64,000 nt of DNA, taken from a virus. The first letter of the stretch is position 1. The number at the start of each line of letters is the position of its first letter. Below are positions 16,133 through 64,000 of this stretch, piece after piece. The notes below the pieces were generated by a model. The model was given only the letters and a program-made list of their open reading frames with translations, was not told where the DNA came from and ran no database searches. Location: positions 32,001 through 96,000 of IMG/VR virus record IMGVR_UViG_3300035180_001452. The stretch is one strand, 5' to 3'. The translations under genes were made by a program, and so were the position numbers.

Positions 16133-17098
16133 CTAGGCAATAGCTGCTGCAGGATGTTTGAAAAACTCTTTTGTGTTAAAGGCTATAAGGTCTCTAAATA
16201 TTTCCTTAACACTACTAAGTGGTCTCTTGTCTAATGCCCATATTATGGCATTGGTTGATGATATGCCCTTCCAGGGGATATTACTTTCCTTGTCTATAAG
16301 CTGGAAAGTGAGCGGCTTCGAAAAGATCCAGGATAGATAAACTCGCCAATCTTCTCCAATGACTCCCAAACAATTAGGGTTTTCAATTAGAGCAACCTGC
16401 TCAGCAGTAGTTAGTACTTCACTACTACCCCAAATAGTACCATTAGACTCTACATATACAGAAGCAATTCCTGTCTTATGTACTTTACACCACTCCCATA
16501 CAGTATCCCGGTATTCTTCACTAGCGTCCTCTGATATGGGAAATACCATATAGTAGTCATCTCTAACAGGCTTTCCATCCTCAGCAGCTATACTAGTCCT
16601 CAATTTAGTCTTAATAGACTTTTTAGTCTTACCCCTTACATATGCGTAAGGTATCATATAAGATGGTTCAAGATAATCTGTAATGTCATAGCTAGGTCGT
16701 AGGCCCTGTAAAGCCCTAGCAAAATCAGTAGTTACTGTAGAGAATATGCCATAGATATCTCCTGGAACCCCGCCTTCTGGAGCATTTCCAAGAAACTTCA
16801 TCATATCCTCTAGCTTCTTAGCTTTCGACTCTTCTGAATAAGTATGGGCCATTTCTAGTGTTGGATCAACAGTATATACAAGGTCATAGCCAATATGTGA
16901 GGCTTCAGAAAAATCGTCTAGACTATATATGTTACTAGCTAACGAAGACTCAACTACTAGCTCTTTACACGATTCAGTAGAAACTGCCGCATCCATAAAA
17001 ACTTGGTAAGGAAAGTACTTAATAGTTTCCCTCATAGCTCCTAGAGCAGCTAGCGTTTCTACTTCTTTTCCTGGAATCTTTACTAAGATCTTGATCAC
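16133..17098 (-). CDS. Divergent glycosyltransferase family 9-like (GT-B) protein
   Basis: N-terminal KILVKIPG..ETLAALGAMRETIKYFP and C-terminal TTAEQVALIE...VIGED..VYLSWIFSKP follow the heptosyltransferase pattern. The canonical GD and DSG motifs are not conserved. Confidence 0.5.
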   Translation of the reverse strand: MIKILVKIPGKEVETLAALGAMRETIKYFPYQVFMDAAVSTESCKELVVESSLASNIYSLDDFSEASHIGYDLVYTVDPTLEMAHTYSEESKAKKLEDMMKFLGNAPEGGVPGDIYGIFSTVTTDFARALQGLRPSYDITDYLEPSYMIPYAYVRGKTKKSIKTKLRTSIAAEDGKPVRDDYYMVFPISEDASEEYRDTVWEWCKVHKTGIASVYVESNGTIWGSSEVLTTAEQVALIENPNCLGVIGEDWRVYLSWIFSKPLTFQLIDKESNIPWKGISSTNAIIWALDKRPLSSVKEIFRDLIAFNTKEFFKHPAAAIA

Positions 17099-17349: not shown

Positions 17350-17361
17350 TATTATGGCACA
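17350..17361 (-). promoter_or_regulatory. Candidate extended -10 promoter TGTGCCATAATA
   Basis: Identical 12-mer at 51519-51530 and 52172-52183, each upstream of a minus-strand start. Confidence 0.6.
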
Positions 17362-51495: not shown

Positions 51496-52122
51496 CTAAA
51501 TACGGGACACTTCTATCTTATTATGGCACAAACTACGTATGTCCCACAAGGCTGATTTAGGAGTCACCCAGCATATGTCTCTTCGGAGTTTAATCCCCGG
51601 TACACTCTCAGCAGCTTCATAATGTTTATTATTGATACTACCTAGTTTTAAGAATTCCTTTACAGGTAACCATCCAAGGAATTTTATGTCTTGGAATGTG
51701 TACCCTTGAATTATTACCGGGTGAGTTTCTGATGGCGATGGGGTCGCATTCATACTAGGTACGGTGGTCTTACAGACTGTAGGTATTACCTGTACAGCTA
51801 CAACTACATCAGAGCTACTAGCATTATCTAAACAATCCTTAGGTATCCAAATGGATTTAGGTAGCGCTACTGATTTAACTATAAGTTTTCTACCGTCAGG
51901 TAGAACCCCGTCCGGTTTAGACCTATCTCCTCTCTTCCCATACAAGTTCCAATCCATAGTAGCGTTTAAATACTTTTGGCAAGCATACTCTGCATAAACC
52001 CCCATTACATGCTTTATTAAAGGTGGCCATCCTCTAGATATGGTCTGGTTAGTTTTTGGTTTATTCCTTTTAATCGCCATATCTACACAGAATTTAATAT
52101 CTTCTTCTGTAAACTCAATCAT
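51496..52122 (-). CDS. PD-(D/E)XK nuclease-fold protein
   Basis: GVYAEYAC...PDGVL.DG...IVKS. Confidence 0.45.
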   Translation of the reverse strand: MIEFTEEDIKFCVDMAIKRNKPKTNQTISRGWPPLIKHVMGVYAEYACQKYLNATMDWNLYGKRGDRSKPDGVLPDGRKLIVKSVALPKSIWIPKDCLDNASSSDVVVAVQVIPTVCKTTVPSMNATPSPSETHPVIIQGYTFQDIKFLGWLPVKEFLKLGSINNKHYEAAESVPGIKLRRDICWVTPKSALWDIRSLCHNKIEVSRI

Positions 52123-52288
52123 TAATATATCCTTGTTTATTACACGGACTAGGTCTTACTAAACTCTACATTATTATGGCACACTCAGATTATCTTGTAT
52201 AGCAGGGTTTAGCATAAATACGGACATAGTTTATCAGGCCAGAAACCAATCCTGCCTCTAGGTACTATATTACCTAGATGATCTAGGG

Positions 52289-52329
52289 GGTGTGTCTCAA
52301 ATTTACCCACGGTAAGTTTGAGATGTGCC
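52289..52329 (+). promoter_or_regulatory. 19-bp leader hairpin at start of the plus-strand array
   Basis: GGTGTGTCTCAAATTTACC-CAC-GGTAAGTTTGAGATGTGCC, fully paired only if five G-U pairs are allowed. Confidence 0.7.
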
Positions 52330-52377
52330 AGCGAGTGCTCTGGGGACATGAGCCCCTGCACTCAGAAAGGTAAGAGA

Positions 52378-52725
52378 ATGTCCAAGGTTAAGGAGTGGTT
52401 GGAGAAGCTTGCGGGGCTTTTGGCCCCAAAGGCGAGGATCGTGGAGAGCACGGCTACCGGTGACGATCAGACCGGCATCGTCACTGTCGCCCTTATCCAG
52501 GGCGATGCGCGCATCGAGATGGCGGTCAGCTATGACCGCCAGAATTTCCGGGTTGGCTTCTCCGTCAAGAAGGCGGAGGGCTACCCGGTCTCTTCTGGAA
52601 GCGTTACCTTCGAGAACAACTGGTACGAGGTTCATCTCGAGAATATTCTCGAGATGAAGTTCAAAAGTGCATCGATGATCCCGTGGGGGATCATCGGGGC
52701 TGAGATCGAGAAGGCTATCAGGTAG
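52378..52725 (+). CDS. Cassette protein, family 1
   Basis: ATG after repeat B and SD; C-terminal SMIPWGIIGAEIEKAIR. Confidence 0.8.
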   Translation: MSKVKEWLEKLAGLLAPKARIVESTATGDDQTGIVTVALIQGDARIEMAVSYDRQNFRVGFSVKKAEGYPVSSGSVTFENNWYEVHLENILEMKFKSASMIPWGIIGAEIEKAIR

Positions 52726-52820
52726 CCTTCTCGATCACCAAGGAGGAGGGGCTAACGCCCCTCCTTCTTGGGCTGAGTGCTTAGGGGACATGAGCCCCTG
52801 CACTCGGAAAGGAAAAGGAA

Positions 52821-53186
52821 ATGGAGTTGAAGATTGAGAAGTTTCTGCGCCTGGTGACGGGGCTTCTCCTGCCCCCCGACACGGTCTGTGTCGAGGAGAC
52901 CGTGCTCGGTACTGACGAGTCGGGCATCGTGGGGTACATGTTCCAGATTGGCGAGGTCAACCTGGACGTTGCACTCACGAACAACCGGGACGAGTGGACG
53001 TTCACCCTTGATACTATCAAGGGAGGTCGGAAGATCCTGATGGTCACCGTCTTGTACCAGCACGCGTGGTACAGCATGTCTATCCGGGCCAAGGACGTGG
53101 AGACGACCCGGAAGTTCCGGGATGCCTCGAGCATTCCCTGGGACGAGGTCGGGAAGGAGATCGGCAAGGCCCTCTCTGACATCTAG
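52821..53186 (+). CDS. Cassette protein, family 1
   Basis: RKFRDASSIPWDEVGKEIGKAL; paralog of 55329. Confidence 0.82.
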   Translation: MELKIEKFLRLVTGLLLPPDTVCVEETVLGTDESGIVGYMFQIGEVNLDVALTNNRDEWTFTLDTIKGGRKILMVTVLYQHAWYSMSIRAKDVETTRKFRDASSIPWDEVGKEIGKALSDI

Positions 53187-53279
53187 AGAGGGCCTGGGCC
53201 TAAGGAGGAGGGGCTAACGCCCCTCCTTCTTGGGCTGAGCCAGAAGAATGTACCTCTGGCTTGGGAGGAGGTGAATAAA

Positions 53280-53417
53280 ATGGTGGGCCTCGTTGTGGTG
53301 GTAGTAGTTGTGGCGGGCCTGGTTAAGCTCCTCGAGTCGGTTCGTGAGGAGCAAAACCGTGCCCTCACCTTCTCCTTTATGGAGATCATGAAGGAGGAGA
53401 AGGAGGAGGAGAAGTAA
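53280..53417 (+). CDS. 45-aa membrane peptide (not in ORF track)
   Basis: SD GGAGGTGA; MVGLVVVVVVVAGLVKLL...MKEEKEEEK. Confidence 0.75.
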   Translation: MVGLVVVVVVVAGLVKLLESVREEQNRALTFSFMEIMKEEKEEEK

Positions 53418-53514
53418 TTCTCCTCCTCCAGCCTAAGGAGGAGGGGCTAACGCCCCTCCTTCTTGGGCTGAGTGTTTAGAGGACATGAGCCTCTGCACTC
53501 AGAAAGGTAGGAAG

Positions 53515-53982
53515 ATGAAGCCTAGCAAGAAGATCCTTGCTGGGTTCCAGGTCCTCTTTGGATCTGGGATCCAGCAGGGGGTGACCCCAGAAGTTTGGGT
53601 CACTACCAGCAAGCGGACTTTTAAGATGGTCCGCTGTGACATCGGAACCCCCGTTGTGGGGGTCATCACCCGCAGCGGCTGGCAGGTTGCCGCTATCCAG
53701 TCCGAGGAGAAGTATGTCTGGCTCGCTCCTGGCGAGAGCGAGCCAAGGATCGGGTCTCTCGTCAAGCTCCTTCAGGAGTTCTTGAAGGATAAGGGTGATG
53801 GCGTGTTCGACATCATCCTTGCCTTCAAGAAGGAGGTCGAGGAGACCAAGGCTAGCAAGAAGGATGATGAGACCTTTATCGACCTGCTTTATAAGCAGGC
53901 CGAGATGGTCTCCTCAACCATCTCGAGCACGTACTCCAGCGTGGTGGAGTACGTTACCAACATCCCCAAGATTTTCTCGTAG
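53515..53982 (+). CDS. Cassette protein, family 2
   Basis: LAGFQVLFG...GW...VWLAP.ESEP; paralog of 56946 and 58831. Confidence 0.82.
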   Translation: MKPSKKILAGFQVLFGSGIQQGVTPEVWVTTSKRTFKMVRCDIGTPVVGVITRSGWQVAAIQSEEKYVWLAPGESEPRIGSLVKLLQEFLKDKGDGVFDIILAFKKEVEETKASKKDDETFIDLLYKQAEMVSSTISSTYSSVVEYVTNIPKIFS

Positions 53983-54067
53983 GGGATGTTGGTAGCCTGA
54001 GGAGGAGGGGCTAACGCCCCTCCTTCTTAGGCTGAGTGTTTAGAGGACACGAGCCTCTGCACTCAGA

Positions 54068-54205
54068 AAGGCAGTGCAATGACTTGACTGCCTTGGATCG
54101 CTGATCGCTAGGCTAGTTAATGCTTTAGGGGCAGTATTAACTAGCTAGAGTGCAGCCTTGGTATTAAAGTGTGGCTGCAATAGGGCTAACGCCCTTCCTT
54201 TTTAT
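54068..54205 (+). ncRNA. Element C copy 1: ~140-nt structured non-coding unit (ncRNA or promoter module)
   Basis: Stems AAGGCAGT/ACTGCCTT, CTAGTTAATGCT/AGTATTAACTAG, TGCAGCC/GGCTGCA and AGGGC-TAAC-GCCCT, then TCCTTTTT. Confidence 0.55.
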
Positions 54206-54255
54206 GCTGAGTGCTTAGAGGACATGAGCCTCTGCACTCAGAAAGGAAGAAGAAG

Positions 54256-54666
54256 ATGAAGTTGTTGATCCGGCTGTTCACGATGTATCTTGACTTCCTC
54301 CTTAAGAATTCAATGGAGGTAGTTAAGATGGAGGTAGTGGGCGGTAGCTTTGACATCGATTCCGTTCAGGATGGTGTCAGGCTCTCTGTTTCTGCAAAGC
54401 TTACCCAGGAAGGTATGCTTTTGCAGTATGTGTTGGGTTTTAAGGAAAGATACCTAGTAACGACACGTTTGGCAGGTAATAGTGGATATGGACATAAGTC
54501 AATGGTGGCAAGGAAGCCACATGAGAAGAGAAAGATCCGTCTGGAGAGTCGGCTCCTCCAGACGGAGGATGAGGTCGTTCGGTTCCTCCAGCCAGGGGGA
54601 ACCGATGAGGTTTCCGTTGAGGATGCTATGAAGATTCATAGCATCCTTATCTGGCTGGATGAGTAG
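54256..54666 (+). CDS. Cassette protein, family 3
   Basis: MKLLIRLF...LQTEDEVVRFLQP; paralog of 56422. Confidence 0.82.
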   Translation: MKLLIRLFTMYLDFLLKNSMEVVKMEVVGGSFDIDSVQDGVRLSVSAKLTQEGMLLQYVLGFKERYLVTTRLAGNSGYGHKSMVARKPHEKRKIRLESRLLQTEDEVVRFLQPGGTDEVSVEDAMKIHSILIWLDE

Positions 54667-54763
54667 TTTCGACCAGCCAGCTTGAGAGGGAGGGGCTAAC
54701 GCCCCTCCTTCTTGGGCTGAGCACTCTGGGGACATGAGCCCCTGTGCTTGAAAGGAGACAGCG

Positions 54764-55183
54764 ATGCTATATGCTATCGCTGAGGCGTACCGAAGCATCT
54801 TCGGTGCGCCCGTCCACGAGACAATCGTGGACGGTATCCTCCACCAGGCTTTTCTGGTGGGGGATGGTGTGGTGGAGCTTTCGTTCCACCATACCATGGA
54901 CAAGATGATGATGTCTATGGTCTTGTCCATTGTTCCGGCCTCGGTCGAGGTCGGATATGATGTTATCCTCAAGGACAACATCGTGACTTTCCGTCTTGCC
55001 CTTTCCAAGGGCGAGCTTGACTCTGAGGAAGTTGCGCTTAGCGCGCAGCTTCCTTGTGGGGTGCACCCCATCAAGGTGTTCCTTCCTGGGAAGGAGGGAC
55101 CTGTTCCCTCCTTCCTCAACCTCAGTGAGGAGCAGCACATGCTCCTCAAGGAGTGGACTAAGAAGTTGATGGGGAGCATGTAG
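54764..55183 (+). CDS. Cassette protein, singleton
   Basis: SD AAGGAG after a B variant. Confidence 0.78.
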   Translation: MLYAIAEAYRSIFGAPVHETIVDGILHQAFLVGDGVVELSFHHTMDKMMMSMVLSIVPASVEVGYDVILKDNIVTFRLALSKGELDSEEVALSAQLPCGVHPIKVFLPGKEGPVPSFLNLSEEQHMLLKEWTKKLMGSM

Positions 55184-55328
55184 TGGTTTTGTATTACCGG
55201 GAAATGAGCTCACATCCCGGTAATACAGACGTAGCTAACTACTAGACTAAGGAGGAGGGGCTAACGCCCCTCCTTCTTGGTCTGAGTGCTTAGGGGACAT
55301 GAGCCCCTGCACTTGGAAGGAGAAGGAA

Positions 55329-55649
55329 ATGGAGTTGAATATCGAGCAGATGATGTACAATCTGATTGCGGCCCTGCTTCCCGGAAACATTTCCGGGATC
55401 GATCGGACGCTCCAGATCAATGTCAAGACCATTGATTTGGCGCTCGGAGAGTTCGGTCTCGAGGGGATGCTTACTCTGGAAATCGTTGAGAATGACAACA
55501 AGCTCGTTAAGGTTGTTATTCGATACGAGGAGGGTGAGTACACTCTTGGCATCCGGACCAAGGAGATGCATACGATCCGGAAGTTCCGGGATATCTCGGT
55601 GATCCCCTGGAACACCATCACGGATGAGATCGAGGAGGCTATCAAGTAG
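55329..55649 (+). CDS. Cassette protein, family 1
   Basis: RKFRDISVIPWNTITDEIEEAIK. Confidence 0.82.
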   Translation: MELNIEQMMYNLIAALLPGNISGIDRTLQINVKTIDLALGEFGLEGMLTLEIVENDNKLVKVVIRYEEGEYTLGIRTKEMHTIRKFRDISVIPWNTITDEIEEAIK

Positions 55650-55741
55650 CCTTCTCGACCCCTAAGGAGGAGGGGCTAACGCCCCTCCTTCTTGGGCTGA
55701 GCCAGAAGAATGTATCTCTGGCTGGAGAGGAGGTGAATAAG

Positions 55742-55900
55742 ATGGATGTTCTCGCTGCTCTTCTGTCAGTCGTGGTTTTCGTAGCAGTAATGCTACGAGT
55801 ACTCGGCTGTGCTCAGGAGGAGCATAAGCGGGTGATTACCAGCTCCTTCATCGAGGTTTGCAAGGCGATGAGGGAGGCGGAGGAGGCGGAGGAGAAATAA
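55742..55900 (+). CDS. 52-aa membrane peptide (not in ORF track), paralog of 53280
   Basis: SD GGAGGTGA; MDVLAALLSVVVFVAVML...EAEEK. Confidence 0.75.
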   Translation: MDVLAALLSVVVFVAVMLRVLGCAQEEHKRVITSSFIEVCKAMREAEEAEEK

Positions 55901-55991
55901 TCTCCTCTAGCCTGAGGAGGAGGGGCTAACGCCCCTCCTTCTTGGGCTGAGCCAGAAGAATGTACCTCTGGCTGGAGAGGAGGTGAATAAG

Positions 55992-56147
55992 ATGACCGTC
56001 AAGATTTTCGATGGCTTTAATGCCGTGGTCGATGATGATGGCACCATCATCGGGTTCTATACGGACCCGGGTGTTCTCATCGACCTTTGCCTTGACGAGG
56101 CTAATAATATTATTGGCTTCGTCAAGGCCAAGGAGGAGGAGAAGTAA
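55992..56147 (+). CDS. 51-aa acidic peptide (not in ORF track)
   Basis: SD GGAGGTGA; MTVKIFDGFNAVVDDDG...KAKEEEK. Confidence 0.72.
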   Translation: MTVKIFDGFNAVVDDDGTIIGFYTDPGVLIDLCLDEANNIIGFVKAKEEEK

Positions 56148-56233
56148 TTCTCCTCCTCCAGCCTGAGGAGGAGGGGCTAACGCCCCTCCTTCTTGGGCTG
56201 AGTGTTTAGAGGACACGAGCCTCTGCACTCAGA

Positions 56234-56371
56234 AAGGCAGTGCAATGACTTGACTGCCTTGGATTGCTAGTTGCCAAGCTAGTTAATGCTAAGGGGCTAG
56301 TATTAACTAGCTTGAGTGCAGCCCTAGTACTAACGTGTGGCTGCAATAGGGCTAACGCCCTTCCTTTTTAT
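56234..56371 (+). ncRNA. Element C copy 2
   Basis: Same four stems; outer pair changed to CAAGCTAG/CTAGCTTG. Confidence 0.55.
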
Positions 56372-56421
56372 ACTGAGTGCTTAGAGGACATGAGCCTCTG
56401 CACTCAGAAAGGAAGAAGAAG

Positions 56422-56847
56422 ATGAAGCTGTTGGTCCGGCTGTTCGTGATGTACTTGGATTTTCTCCGCAGCGGCTTCGCGGAGGTTACCAAGCTTGAAG
56501 CTGGTGAGGAGGGCTTCAAGCTCGAGGCGGTGGATGCTTACGGAGGGATTGTTCTTACGACCTCTTTTGAGGTCGTTCCGACAGGGGTTGTCCTTCAGTA
56601 TGTTCTTCTTTACGAATCGCGCAACTATCTCATAACAACGCGATTCGTTGGGAATGACGGATGGTCGTTCAAGTCAATGACGGCAACAAAGTCAAATCCG
56701 TCTGAGACTAGAAAGATCCGTCTAGAGACTCGCACCCTCCAGACGGAGGATGAGGTCGTTCGGTTCCTTCAACCAGAAGGGACCGATGAGGTTTCTGTCG
56801 AGGATGCTATGAAGATTCATAGCATTCTCGCGTGGCTGGTCGAGTAG
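56422..56847 (+). CDS. Cassette protein, family 3
   Basis: Paralog of 54256. Confidence 0.82.
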   Translation: MKLLVRLFVMYLDFLRSGFAEVTKLEAGEEGFKLEAVDAYGGIVLTTSFEVVPTGVVLQYVLLYESRNYLITTRFVGNDGWSFKSMTATKSNPSETRKIRLETRTLQTEDEVVRFLQPEGTDEVSVEDAMKIHSILAWLVE

Positions 56848-56945
56848 TTTCGACCAGCCAGCCTAAGGAGGAGGGGCTAACGCCCCTCCTTCTTGGGCTG
56901 AGTGTTTAGAGGACATGAGCCTCTGCACTCAGAAAGGGGAGGCAT

Positions 56946-57398
56946 ATGACGCCTCGCGAGAAGTACCTCGCGGGGTTCCAGGTCCTCTTTGGACCTGGAA
57001 TTCCACGGGGTGTCACCCCCGAGGTCCGCATTGCCGTTGGTAAGCGGACCAGCACGATGGTGCGATGCACCATCGGGACCCCCATTGTGGGGGTCATCGT
57101 CCGCGAGGGCTGGATGGTCGCAAAGATCCAGCCTGAGGAGAAGTATGTCTGGCTCGCTCCTAATGAGAGCGAGCCAAGCGTTGGTTCTCTCACTCAGCTC
57201 CTTCAGGGGTTCCTGAAGGACAAGGGGTGCGTGTTCGATCTCCTTCTTGAGTTCAAGAAGGAGATCGAGGAGTCCAAGGAGGATGTCACCTTCCTTGACT
57301 TGATGTACAAGCAGCTCGAGATGGTTGGTGATACCATCTCGAGCACGTACTCCACTATGCTGGAGTACGTTACCAACATCCCCAAGATTTTCTCGTAG
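56946..57398 (+). CDS. Cassette protein, family 2
   Basis: Paralog of 53515; SD GGGGAGG. Confidence 0.82.
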   Translation: MTPREKYLAGFQVLFGPGIPRGVTPEVRIAVGKRTSTMVRCTIGTPIVGVIVREGWMVAKIQPEEKYVWLAPNESEPSVGSLTQLLQGFLKDKGCVFDLLLEFKKEIEESKEDVTFLDLMYKQLEMVGDTISSTYSTMLEYVTNIPKIFS

Positions 57399-57524
57399 GG
57401 GATGTTGGTAGCCTGAGGAGGAGGGGCTAACGCCCCTCCTTCTTGGGCTGAGGAGATATTAGTATCTCCTCTTATTACTTTGGTATTACCGGGAATGTGA
57501 GACACTCTCCGGTAATAAGAAAGG

Positions 57525-57660
57525 AGTGGTAGAATGACTTGACTACCTAGTGACATCCGTAGCTAGGCTAGTTAATGCTAGGGGGCTAGTATTAACTAGC
57601 CAGAATGCAGCCCTAGTATTAACGTGTGGCTGCAATAGGGCTAACGCCCTTCCTTTTTAT
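57525..57660 (+). ncRNA. Element C copy 3 (first stem diverged)
   Basis: ATGACTTGACT...CTAGTTAATGCTA/TAGTATTAACTAG...GTGTGGCTGCAATAGGGCTAACGCCCTTCCTTTTT. Confidence 0.5.
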
Positions 57661-57710
57661 ACTGAGTGTTTAGAGGACATGAGCCTCTGCACTCAGAAAG
57701 GCAGGAGAAG

Positions 57711-58079
57711 ATGAAGTTTGACGTTGTGGAAATGCTGGCATGGTTTGCCAGCATGTTGGGCGTATCCGCTGATACGTCCAACATCGAGACCGGGATCTCT
57801 TCTCGGTCTAAGTATGCCTCCATCGATAAGACTATCGATGGGATTGCCTTCTCAATGAAGGCATCAGTGGCTCTGGACGGAGAGTGGTGTATTCTCGGCA
57901 TGGTGGCCGAGAACAAGGAGGGTAGCTGTGCTACCCTCTCGGTCTGTGTCGACCGTGACGTTACGGTCGGGATGGAGGATGGCAATGGTGTTTACACCGT
58001 TGCCATCTACGAGTCGGCTGCTGATGTTCCGTGGGAGGATATCAGCGACAAGGCTAACAAGGTCATCTCTAGCCTGTAG
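57711..58079 (+). CDS. Cassette protein, family 1-related
   Basis: MKFDVVEMLAWFA...ADVPWEDISDKANKVI. Confidence 0.8.
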   Translation: MKFDVVEMLAWFASMLGVSADTSNIETGISSRSKYASIDKTIDGIAFSMKASVALDGEWCILGMVAENKEGSCATLSVCVDRDVTVGMEDGNGVYTVAIYESAADVPWEDISDKANKVISSL

Positions 58080-58176
58080 AGGTGGCTTTGGCCTGAGGAG
58101 GAGGGGCTAACGCCCCTCCTTCTTAGGCTGAGTGTTTAGAGGACATGAGCCTCTGCACTCAGAAAGGCAGGAGAAG

Positions 58177-58560
58177 ATGATGTTTGATGTTGTGGAGATG
58201 CTGGCATGGTTTGCTGGCATTCTCCTGCCTGACGCGTACTACCGCGCGTCAGGCGTGGCAACCGGTAAGTCTGATGATTCTTGCTACGCTGAGACTGGTT
58301 ATCTCAGCAGCAAGAATAGCGGACTTGCGATCGGTGTGAAGTGCACCTCCTCGTTCGACAATAGCTGGTGGATTCTCGGCTTGGTAGCCGAGAATCTGGA
58401 TGGGGAGTTCTTCACGCTGTCCCTGTCATTTGACAGGGGGACTGTCACGTACTCGGTGGAGGATAAGGGGCTTTATTCCTCCTATGAGTATGACAACATC
58501 ACTGATGTTCAGTGGGATGTTGTCATTAATGAGACCATTAAGGCCCTCTCTAGGATGTAG
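58177..58560 (+). CDS. Cassette protein, family 1-related
   Basis: MMFDVVEMLAWFA...TDVQWDVVINETIKAL; tandem paralog of 57711. Confidence 0.8.
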   Translation: MMFDVVEMLAWFAGILLPDAYYRASGVATGKSDDSCYAETGYLSSKNSGLAIGVKCTSSFDNSWWILGLVAENLDGEFFTLSLSFDRGTVTYSVEDKGLYSSYEYDNITDVQWDVVINETIKALSRM

Positions 58561-58644
58561 AGAGGGCCTGAGCCTGAGGAGGAGGGGCTAACGCCCCTCC
58601 TTCTTGGGCTGAGTGTTTAGAGGACATGAGCCTCTGCACTCAAG

Positions 58645-58782
58645 GAGGCAGTGCAATGACTTGACTGCCTTGGATTGCTAGTTGTTAAGCTAGTTAATAC
58701 TTTAGGGGCAGTATTAACTAGCTAGAATGCGGTTCTAGTGTTAAAGTGTGGCTGCAATAGGGCTAACGCCCTTCCTTTTTAT
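58645..58782 (+). ncRNA. Element C copy 4
   Basis: Same architecture; third stem TGCGGTT/GGCTGCA retained through G-U pairs. Confidence 0.5.
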
Positions 58783-58830
58783 ACTGAGCATTCTGGGGAC
58801 ATGAGCCCCTGTGCTTGAAAGGGGAGGCAT

Positions 58831-59223
58831 ATGACGCCTCGCGAGAAGTATCTTGCGGGATTCTGGGCGTTGTTTGAGCCCGTAATTCCCGCAGCCCTCC
58901 GGACGGTAGTCCGGAGGACCGTCCGGCTTAGTAAAAGCCGTCAAACGTTTGAGACTGCTCTCGTAGTAGTCTCAATCGAAGTCGGTGGGCGAACCCTTAG
59001 GATGGTTCGACAGCCGATCAAGGACTCCCAAACGGGAGTCCTTGCGAGCAGTGGCTGGAAGATCGCTTGGGTTTTCCAGCCAGATCCAGAGAATGGAACG
59101 TATGTTCCATTTCCCGAGGGCCGGTGCGTTTGGCTGGCCCCGGGATCCGACCAGCCCAAGATCGGGTTGGTCGGGGACCTTCTCCGGGAGGCGTACGGAC
59201 TCCCGGAGAGGATCAACCGGTAG
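58831..59223 (+). CDS. Cassette protein, family 2 (divergent)
   Basis: MTPREKYLAGF...SGWKIA...VWLAPGSDQPKIG. Confidence 0.8.
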   Translation: MTPREKYLAGFWALFEPVIPAALRTVVRRTVRLSKSRQTFETALVVVSIEVGGRTLRMVRQPIKDSQTGVLASSGWKIAWVFQPDPENGTYVPFPEGRCVWLAPGSDQPKIGLVGDLLREAYGLPERINR

Positions 59224-59349
59224 CTTTGTATAAGGAGGAGAAGGCTAGTATTTTCTCCTCCTTATACTACGACTGGTGATTTTTTTACCGGGAGGTGTGT
59301 TCCGTCAGCTTATGCGTAAGTATAGGCTCGGATCACATCTCCCGGTAGA

Positions 59350-59491
59350 AAGGCAAAAGTAAAAATGACCTGACTACCTATTGGTAGCTGGCGCTAGATT
59401 AGTTAATACTTTAGGGGTAGTATTAACTATCTAGTGTATAGCTCTAATATTAAGGTGTGGCTGCAATAGGGCTAACGCCCTTCCTTTTTAT
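59350..59491 (+). ncRNA. Element C copy 5 (most diverged)
   Basis: CTAGATTAGTTAATACT/AGTATTAACTATCTAG; identical 3' end. Confidence 0.5.
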
Positions 59492-59540
59492 ATTGAGTGC
59501 TTAGAGGACATGAGCCTCTGCACTCAGAAAGGAGATGTAG

Positions 59541-59945
59541 ATGATTGCGGGTGTCTTGGTCGGGCTCATCGAGCAGCTGCTGCTCGGTGACTTCAGCATC
59601 TTAGGGCGGTATGTGCTTGGTAACCCTAAGATGCACGAGTGCTGTCACAAGACATTGGTTGTTGATGGTGCCGCTGTGTTGGTCACCGTTGCCGTGTCCG
59701 GTTTTGGTCACGGTATCGTGACCGTCTCCTCTAGCTCCTCTAGCGGTACCTATGGTGCTCGGTCTGTGGAGGTAGTGGGCATCATGGGACTCCCGGATCA
59801 TACCTGGGCCGTCAACGGGCATACCGTTGATGGTGGGAGGCTGATCTCAGTGGAGGAGGTCGTTGGAAAGGTTGGTGTTGGTGGAAGCTTCGCGTGGAAG
59901 GGCGTATGCAAGGAGGTGGTGGACCTCTACCTTAAGTTGAGGTAG
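59541..59945 (+). CDS. Cassette protein, singleton (Val/Gly-rich)
   Basis: SD AAGGAG after repeat B; ends in a stop-codon hairpin. Confidence 0.75.
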   Translation: MIAGVLVGLIEQLLLGDFSILGRYVLGNPKMHECCHKTLVVDGAAVLVTVAVSGFGHGIVTVSSSSSSGTYGARSVEVVGIMGLPDHTWAVNGHTVDGGRLISVEEVVGKVGVGGSFAWKGVCKEVVDLYLKLR

Positions 59946-60578
59946 AGGTCCAGCCTGAGGAGGAGGGGCTAATGCCCCTCCTTCTTGGGCTGTCTGAGGG
60001 CTAAAAGTTTGTTACTACTCTCTGACAAATGTCTACATGTTTAGGGGCTAACGCCCCTCTTTTTAGTGCTGGGGTATAGTACTATACCCTAGGAGGATGT
60101 TACATGGTACGTCCAGATGGCATCCGATTCGGGGCCTTCGGCCCCTGTTGCTATGCCGGGCATACCATGACGGCAATCTTCTTTACTACAAAGACTACCG
60201 GTAGGGTGCAATCCTGCCTGTACTTTTAGTAATAGCCTATACTCAAGTAAACAGTACCGGGAAGTGTGCACACTCTCCGGTATATCAGTCATAGCTACGC
60301 TATGGTATCAGTAGCAGCTACACTAGAGCTTTAGCCGGTAGGTTTCAGTCGCAGCTAGGCTATGATCTTTTGGTGAAAGTGGCCACCATAGGGCAAAAAG
60401 TGCCACATTTTTGGGCCGAAAATGGACAAAAATGGGCCAAAACATGGATGGGTACTTTTGGGGCTATGGGAGCCACTTATCCAATAGCCTATAGCTACTT
60501 TACCTGGGTAAACAATACTCACCCTGCGGTAAGGGTGTTTACATATAGTGCACAGTTGGTAGACTACCAGAGAGGAGG

Positions 60579-61016
60579 ATGGATATGGTAGTCAGAGTCC
60601 TCTTGGGGAGGACGACAAACCCCAGGAGGGGGCTGGATACTACGGTCAAGTCAGGAAACGGACTTGGCCGTACGTTCGCTCCCTCCTGGGAGCTGGTCCT
60701 GGGATTCAAGAACTACCAGGACCAGCAGGCGGGCAGGGTAGCTCGCTTCCCAGGGTATAATCCTATATCCTGGGAAGAATACTCCCTTTTCTACCGGGAG
60801 ATGTTGAACAGTCTCCCGGTAGACGGTAAGGGGATCCCGTACGCTGTGCGGGATCTTTACAACTTCGGAAAGGAGCAGCCCGGTAACGTGCTGCTTCTAC
60901 GTTGCTACTGCTCGGTAGCAACCCCGTGCTGTCACAACCAGCTAATCATTGATTGGCTGGTTGGGAGGTGGCCGAAGGCCTTCGGCCTCCTCCAGGATAG
61001 CCTCCCCGGTATCTAG
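60579..61016 (+). CDS. DUF488-like protein
   Basis: FAPSWELV...ISWEEY..FY..ML...LLRCYC.....CH; SD GAGGAGG (start possibly 60585). Confidence 0.65.
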   Translation: MDMVVRVLLGRTTNPRRGLDTTVKSGNGLGRTFAPSWELVLGFKNYQDQQAGRVARFPGYNPISWEEYSLFYREMLNSLPVDGKGIPYAVRDLYNFGKEQPGNVLLLRCYCSVATPCCHNQLIIDWLVGRWPKAFGLLQDSLPGI

Positions 61017-61166
61017 TATATCGGGGAGAAAGCCAAGCAGGACGTGGTGCGTTCGATACTACGTCCTGCTTGGCACTACTCAAGTATACCATCGGAATAC
61101 CTTTTGCTCTGATCCTGATGGTGAAACTAGCCTTGCACATGAGAGCGAGGCAGAGAGGAGAGAGAA

Positions 61167-61847
61167 GTGAATAGTATGGATCGGGAAGAGGTGTGGCGTA
61201 CCTGCCCACCGTGGCTAAGAAACGCTGCCCTGGCTATAGCCAGGGGATATGACCACGGATGGTCGCGATCGACAGCCGTTCCGTCAGCTCCTTACTTTTG
61301 GGAGTATGACGACCCATTTCCTTCTCTCAGTGAGATTGAAGAAGGGACACCAGAGGGACCCCTTGGCAAGGGGATCACACAGCCTGATATCTCGTTCGAA
61401 GATGGGCGATACTTTGCCCGACATAGAACGGGAACTGGTAGGGTCTTTATAGAAGTTGCGGTAGACCCTACGAATGATTGTGACCTTTCTTATACGGTCA
61501 TTGTCTCCAGACCCAGTGGAGAAATCGCCTCTGGTACCAAGGTTGGTAATGAGGTATACGTGACTGCAGATCGGGCAGTTTGGGGGACTCGCCATGAGGA
61601 CGCTTGGGAGAAGGCGTGGAAAGCTCTTGGGATTCCTGCTCCCAAGTTCCCCAGCAAGGTTCTTAGGACCATTGAGAAGAACCTTGTTGTAGATGGTAAG
61701 GGACTGAAAGTCGATCCCTTGCGCTGTAGGGTTACGGTACTCCCTACAGCAGTGCTCTCAGTAGAGGACCTTCTAAGCCTTAGGAGGGCTGAGAAGGTCG
61801 AGATAGTTGATATTGTCGGTCAGAGCTATGACCTCACTATCAGCTGA
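61167..61847 (+). CDS. Hypothetical protein, tandem paralog 1
   Basis: Clearly similar to 61897-62568 throughout (APYFWEYDD..PSL.EIEEGTPEGPLGKGIT). Confidence 0.82.
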   Translation: MNSMDREEVWRTCPPWLRNAALAIARGYDHGWSRSTAVPSAPYFWEYDDPFPSLSEIEEGTPEGPLGKGITQPDISFEDGRYFARHRTGTGRVFIEVAVDPTNDCDLSYTVIVSRPSGEIASGTKVGNEVYVTADRAVWGTRHEDAWEKAWKALGIPAPKFPSKVLRTIEKNLVVDGKGLKVDPLRCRVTVLPTAVLSVEDLLSLRRAEKVEIVDIVGQSYDLTIS

Positions 61848-61896
61848 AGTCGTAACAGCCTTGCACATGAGAGCGAGGCAGAGAGGAGAAAACAGC

Positions 61897-62568
61897 ATGA
61901 GCCGGGAAGAGGTGTGGCAATCGATGCCGGTGTCTTTGCGGAATACTGCGCTGGGAATCGCCCGTGCCTATGGGCACGGGTGGGCGTGGTCAACAGTAGT
62001 GCCAGCTGCTCCCTACTTTTGGGAGTACGATGACGTTGTTCCTTCCCTCGAGGAAATCGAGGAAGGAACACCGGAGGGTCCCCTCGGGAAGGGGATCACT
62101 GGGCCAGATATATCGTTCAGGGATGGACGATACTTCGTCTTCCATAAGACTGGGACCGGTAGAGTCACTATCGAGGTCTCAGTGGATCCAGTATCAGATC
62201 CGGGGACAACCTACGAGGTAGTAGTATCCCGCCCCAATGGGGATAGCGCGGTCGGTATTCGGGATGGGAAGAGAACCGAGGATAACGTACGGACGTTCGC
62301 GGATTGGTCCATCTGGGGAATTCGCCACGAGAACGCCTGGAAGAAGGCGTGGGTGGCTCTCGGGATTCCTGCTCCCGAGTTCCCTGGAAAGCTCCTTGAG
62401 AAGGAGCTTGTTGTGAGTGGAAACCTGGAGGGTGATCCTCTGTACTCCAAGGTTAAGATCCTCCCCAAATCGGTTCTTTCTGTGGAGGATCTTTTGCGGC
62501 TCAGAAGGGCTGCATCGGTAGAGATAGTTGATGAGGTAGGGCAGGTCTACCCCCTGATCATCGGGTAG
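61897..62568 (+). CDS. Hypothetical protein, tandem paralog 2
   Basis: ATG behind the same leader and GAGGAG SD. Confidence 0.82.
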   Translation: MSREEVWQSMPVSLRNTALGIARAYGHGWAWSTVVPAAPYFWEYDDVVPSLEEIEEGTPEGPLGKGITGPDISFRDGRYFVFHKTGTGRVTIEVSVDPVSDPGTTYEVVVSRPNGDSAVGIRDGKRTEDNVRTFADWSIWGIRHENAWKKAWVALGIPAPEFPGKLLEKELVVSGNLEGDPLYSKVKILPKSVLSVEDLLRLRRAASVEIVDEVGQVYPLIIG

Positions 62569-62670
62569 AACCGCCACAGAGGAGAGGGAGATCACACCCT
62601 CCCTCTCTTCTGAATACAGGATCTAGGTGTGAACAACACCCCCCGCGCCTAGCGGGGAAAGGAGAGAACA

Positions 62671-63384
62671 GTGGGATTTCTGAAGATCGCTGAGCTGCCC
62701 GAATGGGCAGTATCAGCAGTACGATCCATGGTGGATCGGAGCATTGACCGAAGGGTTTTTGTACTTTCCGGGGATGAGATCCTCGGAAAGGTCGAGGAAG
62801 ACGAATATGCAGTACCAGGCAGTCCGAGTCTGTCTGGTACGATCTCCCTGATGACTGGGGAGGTCTTGGAGTTTAACAACTCCCCGGTGTATCTAGCCAC
62901 GCAACTGGAGCGTGGCTCCCGTGGTATTAATCCTGTCTGCCGGGCAATCGTGCATTGCCCGGTGTCCGAAACCCCTGCGCGGTTTGCTATCGTGCAGGGG
63001 CGCTTTGGAGCGTTCCCCGCTACCATGGGGATACGTTCCAAAAGCGTTGTAGAGTTGATCGAGGCGAAACCCGCCTCGATCCCAAAGCTCGCTCAGGCTC
63101 GAGGTCTTGATGTTAAGGAACTCGAGGAGCGAGTTGCATTCCTCCGCTCCTACGCTGTTAAGAGCGGAGATTTTTGGAACTGGAGAGGCGTCCGCCTCTC
63201 TAACAGTTCCTCTTCTATTCTTGCACAGCTCGGAAATGCTGTGCAGGGAATCTCCATTGTGTCGAGGGATGGGACTGAGTACCCATTCCTCGCCCCGGTC
63301 AACGCCACATCCGTCACCGCCTCCCCGTTCGAGGCGGTTACTCCGCTTGCAGTTTCCGTTACAGTTCCGGAGGTTATCGGATAA
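62671..63384 (+). CDS. Hypothetical protein
   Basis: SD AAGGAG preceded by CCCCGC/GCGGGG hairpin. Confidence 0.75.
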   Translation: MGFLKIAELPEWAVSAVRSMVDRSIDRRVFVLSGDEILGKVEEDEYAVPGSPSLSGTISLMTGEVLEFNNSPVYLATQLERGSRGINPVCRAIVHCPVSETPARFAIVQGRFGAFPATMGIRSKSVVELIEAKPASIPKLAQARGLDVKELEERVAFLRSYAVKSGDFWNWRGVRLSNSSSSILAQLGNAVQGISIVSRDGTEYPFLAPVNATSVTASPFEAVTPLAVSVTVPEVIG

Positions 63385-63412
63385 CCTCCAGTACAGCTAG
63401 AGGGAGGTGCTC

Positions 63413-64000
63413 ATGGATGAGCATCTCCCTCCATTCTCACTACGTTGTACGTTGAAGGAGAATGGGATGAAGGCTGTCTTTGTACAGCAGCCTCGGCTGC
63501 TGGAAAGGGTTGGAAACGTGTTCACCGTGCGGGTGGACACGGATATGACGGGGACCGTTCTCCACCAGGTGTCGCATCCGGAAGAGCAGCCTGTTTTCAG
63601 GCTGCTTGGCAGCCGCATTAAAGTACCGGATCTTCGGGCATTCTACATGCCCGAGCGGACACTTTGGAACGCGAATGGTGTTAGAGGCACTATTCGCGTG
63701 GTAGACTTACCGGAACCGCTTCGCATCATCGATTCGGTGATAGGCGATGCGAAGAATGGTAAGAACTCTGCCTTTAGGGCAGACTCTATGCTCCCGTACA
63801 TCTCTAGGATGTTGCAAGTCGAGGTGTCCCATACCCAGGTAAATGCGCCTGGGATTATGGGCTTCGCGATGGGAGCTGACGGGCAGCTCTCTAGCCGGGA
63901 AGTTGCAATATCCTCCAGAATGGCGGTACGGCTTCTTAGGGTCATTTCCACCCTGCACTGGGACTGGGTGGAATGGCTGGTAAGCCGTACCCCGGAACCT
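63413..64000 (+). CDS. Hypothetical protein (partial, runs off window end)
   Basis: SD GGAGGTG, MDEHLPPFSLRC..., open to the end of the window. Confidence 0.7.
   Translation, partial: MDEHLPPFSLRCTLKENGMKAVFVQQPRLLERVGNVFTVRVDTDMTGTVLHQVSHPEEQPVFRLLGSRIKVPDLRAFYMPERTLWNANGVRGTIRVVDLPEPLRIIDSVIGDAKNGKNSAFRADSMLPYISRMLQVEVSHTQVNAPGIMGFAMGADGQLSSREVAISSRMAVRLLRVISTLHWDWVEWLVSRTPEP

What the first reader, a model, noticed from the sequence alone, without database searches (positions are those of the whole stretch)
52333..61879. ACAUGAG loop displayed on three different stems directly before ribosome-binding sites
Seen: the loop ACAYGAG sits in B with inner stem AGAGG/CCTCT or GGGG/CCCC and outer stem GAGTGY/GCACTC, which flips to GAGCAY/GTGCTT at 54718 and 58785. 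It reappears in an unrelated stem, GCCTTGC-ACATGAGA-GCGAGGC, at 61130 and 61858, outside the A array. Each copy is immediately followed by an SD-like purine run. Inference: a conserved loop on interchangeable stems suggests an operator for an RNA-binding protein that coordinates translation or stability of at least 14 genes.
Basis: partly seen in the sequence, partly recalled or inferred. Interest (0 to 1): 0.8.

Follow-up and report, generated by a model that had tools for sequence, protein, structure and literature searches.

The report
Conserved-loop leader hairpin of phage cassettes
An uncultured phage from microbial mats puts the same small RNA hairpin, always showing the loop ACAUGAG, just before the ribosome-binding site of some 14 small genes, which probably marks them for shared control, but what reads the loop is unknown.

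Summary
ACAYGAG occurs 23 times in the window against 10.5 expected. Fifteen copies cap one 35-nt hairpin family (B, 52331-59527). Two cap an unrelated 7-bp stem (61130-61151, 61858-61879). One lies by chance inside a coding sequence.

B is a real structure of the sense strand. In 30 copies, 15 of them from four related metagenome contigs, 93% of cells pair and three pairs show two-sided compensatory changes. All interior wobbles are G.U on the + strand. B ends 12-14 nt before the start codon and leaves the Shine-Dalgarno run free.

Each B variant travels with its downstream gene across shuffled arrays, so B is the leader of a cassette: B, SD, ORF, then 3' hairpin A.

Inside family B the loop is no better conserved than the stems (Fisher p 0.41). 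The case for a loop-specific reader rests on one independent event, the second stem. The chance of that is about 0.002-0.005, and its hairpin+SD block is 33/33 identical where the coding sequence is 66.5% identical.

No Rfam family, paper or candidate binder was found, and no RNA data. A protein-read operator or processing hairpin is my leading reading (0.4). Rivals are a passive 5' cap or insulator, a promoter for the phage's own RNA polymerase, and a recombination site.

The parts
52331..52365 (+). B hairpin, first cassette (GCGAGTGC-TC-TGGGG-ACATGAG-CCCCT-GCACTCAG). It has no A hairpin upstream and is preceded by a 14-bp AU-rich hairpin. Leads gene 52378-52725.
   Evidence: 54.6 bits
52773..52807 (+). 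B hairpin, GGGG/CCCC inner stem; leads gene 52821-53186
   Evidence: (-19.9 kcal/mol, z -5.1)
53468..53502 (+). B hairpin, GAGG/CCTC inner stem; leads gene 53515-53982
   Evidence: (-17.1 kcal/mol, z -4.3)
54032..54066 (+). B hairpin with loop ACACGAG; leads a non-coding C element (minigene ATG ACT TGA)
54207..54241 (+). B hairpin; leads gene 54256-54666
   Evidence: 62.8 bits
54717..54751 (+). B hairpin, outer stem flipped to GAGCAC/GTGCTT; leads gene 54764-55183
   Evidence: (-14.5 kcal/mol)
55282..55316 (+). B hairpin; leads gene 55329-55649
56198..56232 (+). B hairpin with loop ACACGAG; leads a C element
56373..56407 (+). B hairpin; leads gene 56422-56847
56898..56932 (+). B hairpin; leads gene 56946-57398
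57662..57696 (+). B hairpin; leads gene 57711-58079
58128..58162 (+). B hairpin; leads gene 58177-58560
58609..58643 (+). B hairpin (loop ACATGAG); leads a C element
58784..58818 (+). B hairpin, outer stem GAGCAT/GTGCTT; leads gene 58831-59223
59493..59527 (+). B hairpin, last of the array; leads gene 59541-59945
61130..61151 (+). Second, unrelated stem GCCTTGC/GCGAGGC (one interior U.G) with loop ACATGAGA; leads the 223-aa gene 61176-61847 (or GTG at 61167)
   Evidence: -12.4 kcal/mol, z -4.2; minus strand -8.8; no hit to the B model
61858..61879 (+). Second copy of the unrelated stem, 10 nt after the stop of the preceding gene; leads the paralogue 61897-62568
   Evidence: 33/33 identical block

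Best explanation
The ACAUGAG hairpin is a cis-acting RNA element in the 5' leader of the small-gene cassettes of a GC-rich island in this phage. It folds in the sense transcript and stops 12-17 nt before the start codon, so the Shine-Dalgarno run stays single-stranded right at its foot. It presents a fixed heptaloop, which can also be drawn as a bulged A, a C-G pair and an AUGA tetraloop.

I think a sequence-specific RNA-binding protein or endoribonuclease, of phage or host, reads that loop. Sitting next to the ribosome-binding site, it would set translation and/or define the 5' end and the stability of all marked messages together: 14 genes and 3 minigene elements.

Shown: the structure, its strand, its position, its linkage to the downstream gene, and the reuse of the loop on an unrelated stem.

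Inferred: that the region is transcribed through, that a factor binds, and what binding does.
For: - Structure: in 30 copies (15 distinct) 93.3% of cells pair, against at most 50% for slid partners. Three pairs change on both sides (6-30 UA/CG, 7-29 GC/AU, 13-25 AU/GC), and 0 of 500 shuffles reach the covariation score.
- Sense strand: the 9 interior wobble cells (3-33, 8-28) are G.U on the + strand, and there are no interior C.A cells. The + strand folds better than the - strand in 4 of 4 hairpins tested.
- Position: the stem ends 12-14 nt before the start in 12 of 12 gene-leading B copies. The SD is unpaired in the folds of whole spacers.
- Cassette linkage: the GAGCAY variant precedes the same two gene families in the window and in contigs L023, L024 and L025, although the order of cassettes differs.
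- Loop reuse: the same heptamer caps an unrelated stem that the B covariance model does not find (E > 10). Among about 29 other hairpin families of the island, the chance of one such coincidence is 0.002-0.005.
- Constraint on the second stem: its hairpin+SD block is 33/33 identical while the upstream sequence is unrelated (6/29) and the coding sequence is 66.5% identical. P is about 1e-6.
- Island-specific: six paralogues of the 223-aa family outside the GC-rich island lack the hairpin. No comparable site exists elsewhere in the record.
- The geometry matches known translational operators such as the T4 gp43 hairpin next to the ribosome-binding site (PMC3014915, passages read).
Against: - No binder was found. 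Array and island proteins have no informative Pfam or PHROG family.
- The 223-aa protein, modelled at pLDDT 86, matches no solved fold at E <= 0.001.
- Inside family B the loop is not more conserved than the stems (Fisher p 0.41).
- Leaders are homogenised by recombination: 88/88 identical beside 61.9% in the coding sequence. Conservation alone therefore does not show selection on the loop.
- The loop-specific case rests on one independent event, because the two copies of the second stem are paralogous.
- Three B copies precede elements with only a two-codon minigene, which is odd for a translational operator.
- No transcript evidence of any kind.
- The relatives are close, so there is little evolutionary depth.
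Confidence: 0.4

Rival explanations
1. Passive 5' cap and insulator. The array is made as long transcripts and cut between or within the long A duplex and B. B then protects the new 5' end and keeps the SD free of upstream context, so that shuffled cassettes express alike. The loop has no reader. It is kept by concerted evolution and by intrinsic stability, and the second stem received the hairpin top by descent or patch conversion.
For: - A is a 15-19-bp perfect duplex directly abutting B, a length suited to RNase III.
- Every cassette ends in A and begins with B.
- Whole leaders are identical between cassettes whose coding sequences are 61.9% identical, with the switch about 30 nt into the coding sequence. 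That is a mark of recombination.
- The loop is not more conserved than the stems inside B.
- Other island genes carry different hairpins at the same place, for example CCCCGC-GCCTA-GCGGGG before 62671 and the GCCAGA...TCTGGC hairpin before three small genes.
Against: - It does not explain why an unrelated stem carries exactly the same heptamer (chance 0.002-0.005).
- It does not explain why that block is 33/33 identical between diverged paralogues.
- A 7-nt loop is not a known extra-stable loop (recalled, not tested).
- No cleavage data.
Confidence: 0.27
2. Promoter slot. B, or A plus B, is the promoter of each cassette for the phage's own small two-subunit RNA polymerase encoded at the end of the island. 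It would be recognised as DNA, perhaps as an extruded hairpin as with N4 virion RNA polymerase. The module A+B+SD would then be the counterpart of the T4-type terminator/promoter cassettes (PeSLs).
For: - B occupies exactly the place that the sigma-70 promoter has in PeSLs, between a G/C stem-loop and the SD (PMC2839356, abstract and passages; PMC4122927, abstract only).
- No sigma-70-like promoter is enriched in the array: 7 found against 6.7 expected, and none in the modules.
- A' hairpins with a T run look like true terminators, so units after them need a start.
- B also precedes the non-coding C elements, which would then be small RNAs with their own start and terminator.
- A polymerase with the HQGDCDGDRIG metal motif is encoded in the same island, and its own genes lack B.
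- N4 shows that a hairpin with conserved loop bases and free stem bases can be a promoter (PMC4496689, passages).
Against: - Interior G.U pairs make the hairpin better on the sense, non-template strand. The template strand would carry C.A mismatches in 9 cells. N4 uses the template-strand hairpin.
- 13 bp plus a 7-nt loop is far from the N4 form of a 5-7-bp stem and 3-nt loop.
- The second copy of the second stem lies 10 nt after a stop codon with no terminator before it.
- No virion polymerase was recognised among the giant proteins.
- Nothing is known of what this polymerase family recognises.
Confidence: 0.17
3. Recombination signal only. A and B are the homology patches, or sites for a dedicated recombinase in the manner of folded integron attC sites, that shuffle cassettes. 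They would have no role in expression.
For: - Cassette order and content differ between the window and contigs L023-L025.
- In the same samples, alternative sequence follows the first B just after its SD, as loose ends and joints at repeats in runs X1, X3 and X5.
- Identity drops sharply about 30 nt into the coding sequence.
Against: - Joints at repeats are also what assembly graphs give.
- The fixed 12-14-nt distance to the start, the free SD, the sense-strand wobbles and the second stem before two unshuffled paralogues all point to an RNA role.
- No integrase-like gene was seen next to the array among the proteins searched.
- Shuffling by plain homologous recombination is compatible with any of the other readings.
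Confidence: 0.08
4. Antitermination element. The B RNA, alone (put-like) or with a small protein (N/boxB-like), modifies the polymerase so that it reads through the next A hairpin.
For: - B lies upstream of every A or A' hairpin in the array.
- Hairpins with a conserved loop on a variable stem are how boxB sites look (recalled).
Against: - The second stem has no terminator-like hairpin after the first paralogue.
- The tight coupling to the SD is not needed for antitermination.
- The loop is 7 nt, not a GNRA-like pentaloop.
- No boxA-like partner was looked for.
Confidence: 0.05

Closest known systems
PeSLs, the promoter-early stem-loop cassettes of T4-type phages (PMC2839356, abstract and passages read; PMC4122927, abstract read)
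   Same: A short composite motif is repeated in the spacers of a variable region full of small genes of unknown function. It includes a G/C stem-loop after each gene, then a leader ending in the SD. The repeats serve as exchange points, so cassette content differs between close relatives.
   Different: PeSLs carry a strong sigma-70-like promoter with an AT-rich upstream part. Here that place is taken by a 35-nt covarying hairpin with a fixed loop, and no sigma-70-like promoter is found. The phage is not shown to be T4-like. The array lies in a GC-rich island (52-55% against 36-43%).
Translational operator hairpins read by a protein: T4/RB69 gp43 operator (PMC3014915, passages read); MS2 and PP7 coat-protein operators and the thrS operator (recalled)
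   Same: A small hairpin at or next to the ribosome-binding site whose loop bases, rather than its stem sequence, carry the specificity.
   Different: The known operators stand before one gene, usually the binder's own or one target. Here there are 17 copies before unrelated genes, and no binder is known. The letters ACAUGAG also occur in the laboratory MS2 hairpin, but in its stem (recalled; only listed a paper on MS2/PP7 scaffolds among 217 papers holding the heptamer, and I did not open it). I take that as coincidence.
RNase III processing hairpins between the early genes of phage T7 (R0.3 to R1.3; recalled, no paper read here)
   Same: Repeated hairpins between co-directional early genes of a phage. 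They cut a long transcript into stable messages with structured ends.
   Different: RNase III reads duplex length and shape, not a terminal loop. B has only 13 pairs. The long perfect duplex here is A, not B.
Hairpin promoters of N4 virion RNA polymerase (PMC4496689, passages read)
   Same: A hairpin in which conserved loop and stem bases are read and the other stem bases need only pair. It stands before the early genes of a phage that brings its own polymerase.
   Different: N4 has a 5-7-bp stem and a 3-nt loop, uses the template strand, has 3 copies and uses a T7-like enzyme. Here there are 13 bp and a 7-nt loop, the sense strand folds better, there are 17 copies, and the phage polymerase is of the double-psi-barrel kind.

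Membership tests
PeSL (T4-type promoter-early stem-loop cassette) | Composite motif repeated in the spacers of a variable region of small genes | tested here: met
   15 A+B modules in 7.7 kb; the same modules occur in 4 related contigs
PeSL (T4-type promoter-early stem-loop cassette) | Strong sigma-70-like -35/-10 promoter with an AT-rich upstream part | tested here: not met
   7 promoter-like sites against 6.7 expected in 51900-64000; none in the A-B modules
PeSL (T4-type promoter-early stem-loop cassette) | G/C stem-loop acting as terminator | tested here: inconclusive
   The A hairpin (GGGGC-UAAC-GCCCC core, 15-19 bp) is present. Only the A' form has a free T run. Termination is not testable here.
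PeSL (T4-type promoter-early stem-loop cassette) | Mediates modular shuffling between relatives | tested here: met
   Different cassette order in L023-L025. Leader 88/88 identical beside a coding sequence at 61.9%. Alternative sequence follows the first B in runs X1 and X3.
Protein-read translational operator hairpin | Hairpin at or next to the ribosome-binding site | tested here: met
   The stem ends 12-14 nt (B) or 15-17 nt (second stem) before the start, and the SD lies directly at its foot
Protein-read translational operator hairpin | Specificity in loop bases, stem free to vary | tested here: inconclusive
   The same heptamer caps two unrelated stems (chance 0.002-0.005). Within B the loop is not more conserved than the stems.
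Protein-read translational operator hairpin | A cognate RNA-binding protein | tested here: not met
   No RNA-binding family in the 21 different window and island proteins searched in Pfam (plus PHROGs); no fold match for the 223-aa protein
N4-type hairpin promoter | 5-7-bp stem with 3-nt loop centred at -11 | tested here: not met
   13 pairs with a 2-nt bulge and a 7-nt loop; feature taken from PMC4496689
N4-type hairpin promoter | Hairpin formed by the template strand | tested here: not met
   Interior wobbles are G.U on the sense strand only; the - strand folds worse in 4 of 4
N4-type hairpin promoter | Transcripts start a fixed distance downstream | not testable with these tools
   No RNA run holds the stretch
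T7-type RNase III site | About two turns of duplex, often with an internal loop, between cistrons | tested here: inconclusive
   B has 13 pairs; the neighbouring A has 15-19
T7-type RNase III site | Cleavage by RNase III | not testable with these tools
   Needs an enzyme assay or RNA ends
Any Rfam family | Score at or above the gathering threshold | tested here: not met
   0 matches in the window. At E <= 1 in 52100-63500 there were only 9 sub-threshold matches (8 microRNA families and naRNA4), none on B.

The most novel reading that the evidence does not exclude
The hairpin is a standard 'socket' read by one dedicated factor. Either a sequence-specific RNA-binding or RNA-cutting protein gives every shuffled cassette the same context-free expression and one common switch, which would be a natural counterpart of the engineered Csy4 or MS2 insulator parts. 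Or it is a new kind of hairpin promoter for the phage's minimal two-barrel RNA polymerase. Either way, a phage would run a private expression system, with its own signals, polymerase and base composition, for a freely exchangeable set of small genes.
Probability: 0.3. Interest if true: 0.8.

Novelty: new variant of a known kind. Interest (0 to 1): 0.55.

Why it matters
Arrays of small, fast-changing early genes are where phages keep much of their host-takeover and anti-defence repertoire, and how such genes are switched together is known for very few phages. Here the control signal is unusually legible: one hairpin, one loop, 17 places, all inside a GC-rich island that also encodes a very small RNA polymerase. 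If a reader of the loop exists, it would be a compact, orthogonal RNA-protein pair, possibly from a hot-spring setting (that habitat rests on only a small share of the stretch in two runs), of the kind used as tools (MS2, PP7, Csy4). If the hairpin is instead the polymerase's promoter, it would give the first recognition signal for that polymerase family. If it is only a 5' cap, it is still a clear natural case of insulated, exchangeable expression cassettes.

Tried and rejected
- Loop AUG as a start codon: rejected. The loop AUG is in frame with the gene in 4 of 15 window copies that have an AUG, and in 5 of 14 such copies in relatives, which is about the one third expected by chance. The G-run lies only 2-3 nt before it. 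Gene callers nevertheless use it (165-aa P0001).
- AUG shown in many different loops: about 5 of about 30 hairpin families. This is not convincing and was seen after the fact.
- Kissing partner: the complement CTCRTGT does not occur on the + strand of the island.
- More copies elsewhere:
  - The covariance model R1 finds only the 15 B copies in the window with filters off.
  - The scan of the whole record found exact ACATGAG with at least 4 flanking pairs at five other places (window 31246, 78138, 65355-, 84576-, and -6906-). None of these is a hairpin before an SD. At 78138 the AUG is itself a predicted start.
- Relatives:
  - Protein-based scans found none (viral contigs; metagenome contigs; genome contigs).
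  - The B core in viral contigs gave 3 chance hits without the outer stem.
  - The A pattern gave one single hit.
  - The second stem gave none.
  - The B pattern in genome contigs gave none.
  - blastn against the phage collection gave no match.
  - Only the A pattern in metagenome contigs gave four related arrays.
- Sequencing runs: no RNA holder listed. The X5 contigs gave no cover of L009 9511-15850.
- Binder search: no RNA-binding family or fold was found.
- Host: not identified; no tRNA genes.
- Literature: the heptamer occurs in 217 papers. The 15 listed are unrelated uses, and none is a loop motif (listing only).
- Assembly chimera for the GC-rich island: rejected. One 28-kb contig of run X2 crosses the right border and a 5.5-kb contig crosses the left border, at equal depth. 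These runs may be the window's own source.

Full report
**What the window is.** The window is bases 32001-96000 of a 122,380-bp virus record that CheckV rates 79% complete. It is a tailed phage. Terminase, portal, major head and tail proteins lie on the - strand up to 52122. From about 52200 all genes run on the + strand.

The stretch from window 52.2 kb to about 67 kb is a GC-rich island, 52-55% against 36-43% elsewhere. The island holds:
- the array of small genes;
- a 145-aa gene;
- two 223-aa paralogues;
- a 237-aa gene;
I checked only that the first carries HQGDCDGDRIG.

The island ends at a strong terminator. It is not an assembly chimera. Contigs of independent assemblies cross both borders at equal depth, although those runs may be the window's own source. 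The runs that hold the stretch are labelled microbial mat and sediment, and hot-spring runs hold a small share.

**The observation.** ACAYGAG is over-represented: 23 matches against 10.5 +/- 3.3 expected.
- Fifteen copies cap the hairpin CTGAGTGY-TT-AGRGG-ACAYGAG-CCYCT-GCACTCAG.
- Two cap GCCTTGC-ACATGAGA-GCGAGGC.
- One lies in a coding sequence by chance.

All 17 hairpins run straight into a purine-rich SD. The start codon follows 12-14 nt after the stem for B and 15-17 nt for the second stem. Twelve B copies lead genes. Three lead a roughly 140-nt non-coding element that opens with an SD and the minigene ATG-ACT-TGA.

**Is the hairpin real, and in which strand?** Scanning metagenome contigs for the neighbouring repeat A, without constraining B, returned four short contigs with related arrays. 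These hold 15 more B copies.

On all 30 copies (15 distinct sequences):
- 93.3% of cells pair, against 16-50% when partners are slid;
- three pairs change on both sides;
- no shuffle out of 500 reaches the covariation score.

The interior departures from Watson-Crick pairing are all G.U on the + strand (9 cells), with no interior C.A. The + strand folds better than the - strand in all four hairpins tested, for example -12.4 against -8.8 kcal/mol for the second stem. So the constraint is on the sense strand, that is the transcript or, less likely, the non-template DNA strand.

**To which unit does it belong?** The GAGCAY form of the outer stem precedes the same two gene families in the window and in L023, L024 and L025, although cassette order differs between them. 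In the best pair, the leader (A+B+SD) is 88/88 identical between L025 and L024. The first 30 nt of the coding sequence are 29/30 identical, and the rest is 61.9% identical.

The unit is therefore B, SD, ORF and 3' hairpin A, and the leaders are exchange points. In the same samples, alternative sequence follows the first B just after its SD. This is the logic of the PeSL cassettes of T4-type phages (PMC2839356, PMC4122927). The difference is that the place of their sigma-70 promoter is taken by B, and no sigma-70-like promoter is found.

**Is the loop special?** Inside family B, no. Two of 7 loop columns vary against 14 of 28 other columns (Fisher p 0.41). With leaders homogenised by recombination, identity of the loop among B copies says little.

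The loop variants are ACACGAG (2 copies, both before minigene elements) and ACAUAAG (1 copy, in a relative).

The argument comes from the second stem.
- It shares nothing with B but the heptamer. The covariance model of B finds all 15 B copies at 53-63 bits and does not find the second stem at E <= 10.
- Among about 29 other hairpin families predicted in the island's spacers, the chance that one carries this exact heptamer in its loop is 0.002-0.005.
- Its two copies stand before paralogues. The duplicated unit begins exactly at the hairpin. The 33 nt of hairpin plus SD are identical, whereas the coding sequence is 66.5% identical (P about 1e-6).
- Six further paralogues of that family outside the island have no such hairpin.

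The loop is thus reused and held fixed in a second context, at the same place relative to the SD. That is one independent event, not three.

**How it most likely works.** The data fix an RNA hairpin at the 5' edge of the ribosome-binding site, with the SD left free. This is where known operators sit, such as the T4 gp43 hairpin (PMC3014915, passages). A bound protein there would meet the 30S platform.

I therefore rank first a protein-read hairpin, acting as a translational operator or as the mark for a sequence-specific endonuclease, at 0.4. Its weak points are these:
- No reader was found.
- The 223-aa protein, which would be the natural autoregulator, was modelled at pLDDT 86 and has no solved look-alike.
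- Three copies lead only a two-codon minigene.

**Rivals.**
- *Passive 5' cap or insulator after cutting of a long transcript (0.27).* The neighbouring A hairpin is a 15-19-bp perfect duplex that abuts B without a linker, which would be a good RNase III substrate. Other island genes carry other hairpins at the same place. This reading does not explain the reused heptamer.
- *Promoter for the island's own polymerase (0.17).* It fits the PeSL slot, the lack of host-type promoters, the true terminators (A') before some B copies, and the non-coding units that begin with B. Against it are the sense-strand wobbles and the distance from the only known hairpin promoters, those of N4 (PMC4496689, passages).
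- *Recombination site only (0.08).*
- *Antitermination site (0.05).*

Shuffling by homologous recombination at the leaders is compatible with all of these readings.

**Known or new.** Rfam has nothing. The papers that hold the heptamer use it otherwise (listing only). The hairpin occurs in none of 185,579 species genomes, and in IMG/VR only as 3 chance hits without the outer stem. It is a new variant of a known kind: a repeated regulatory leader of phage gene cassettes.

**Limits.**
- There is no RNA evidence.
- The relatives are close (73-94% nucleotide identity in cassettes).
- The host is unknown.
- Supplements were not read.

Noticed in passing
window 52200-64000 and on to about 67000 (L009 1200-15900): A GC-rich island of about 15 kb (52-55% GC against 36-43% in the rest of the record). 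It holds the array, the 223-aa pair and the small two-subunit RNA polymerase, and it ends at a strong terminator. Both borders are crossed by independent contigs at equal depth.
   Followed up: partly
window 52738-52772 and 19 further copies to 60058: Repeat A is a 15-19-bp perfect duplex in which an SD-like arm (AAGGAGGAGGGG) pairs with an anti-SD-like arm (CCCCUCCUUCUU). It is capped by UAAC, the same four letters as the core of the T4/RB69 gp43 operator loop (PMC3014915). It abuts B with no linker.
   Followed up: partly
window 53236-53265, 55696-55725, 55946-55975; also L024, L025: A different hairpin, GCCAGA-AGAAYGTAYC-TCTGGC, takes the place of B before three very small genes (45-52 aa) that end in glutamate/lysine-rich tails.
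   Followed up: partly
window 54067-54200, 56233-56366, 57520-57655, 58644-58777, 59350-59486: Five copies of a structured non-coding element. Each opens with an SD and the minigene ATG-ACY-TGA held in a hairpin loop, and ends in a terminator-like hairpin with a T run (A'). It could be a small RNA or an attenuator leader.
   Followed up: no
window 55188-55226, 57478-57516, 59284-59352, 60253-60290; 78125-78145: Hairpins built on TACCGGGA...TCCCGGTA stand after stop codons. The copy after gene 54764 shows a compensatory A-U to G-C change in contig L025.
   Followed up: partly
window 52173-52181, 51520-51528, 17351-17359, 16242-16250 (- strand): TGCCATAAT stands before - strand (structural) operons: 5 copies on the - strand and 1 on the + strand in the whole record. 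It looks like an extended -10 element.
   Followed up: partly
window 61176-62568 and 67041-71437: The 223-aa family has eight full or partial paralogues in a row, two GC-rich and six AT-rich (29-67% identity). Outside this phage only three homologues were found. The AlphaFold model (pLDDT 86) has no solved look-alike.
   Followed up: partly
window 53485-53982 and other array genes: Automatic gene calls start several array genes at the AUG inside the hairpin loop (for example the 165-aa P0001 instead of 155 aa). The true starts are the SD-led AUGs 30 nt downstream.
   Followed up: yes
window 59946-60578: About 630 nt with no convincing gene lie between the array and gene 60579. The stretch is full of short hairpins and has repeated GGGCC-AAAA-type words around 60390-60450.
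   Followed up: no
L009 1375, 2188, 3759 and other repeat edges: In the same samples, other contigs continue with different cassettes after the same leader, and a roughly 90% relative in a hot-spring run shows other cassette joints. The array differs between co-existing strains.
   Followed up: partly
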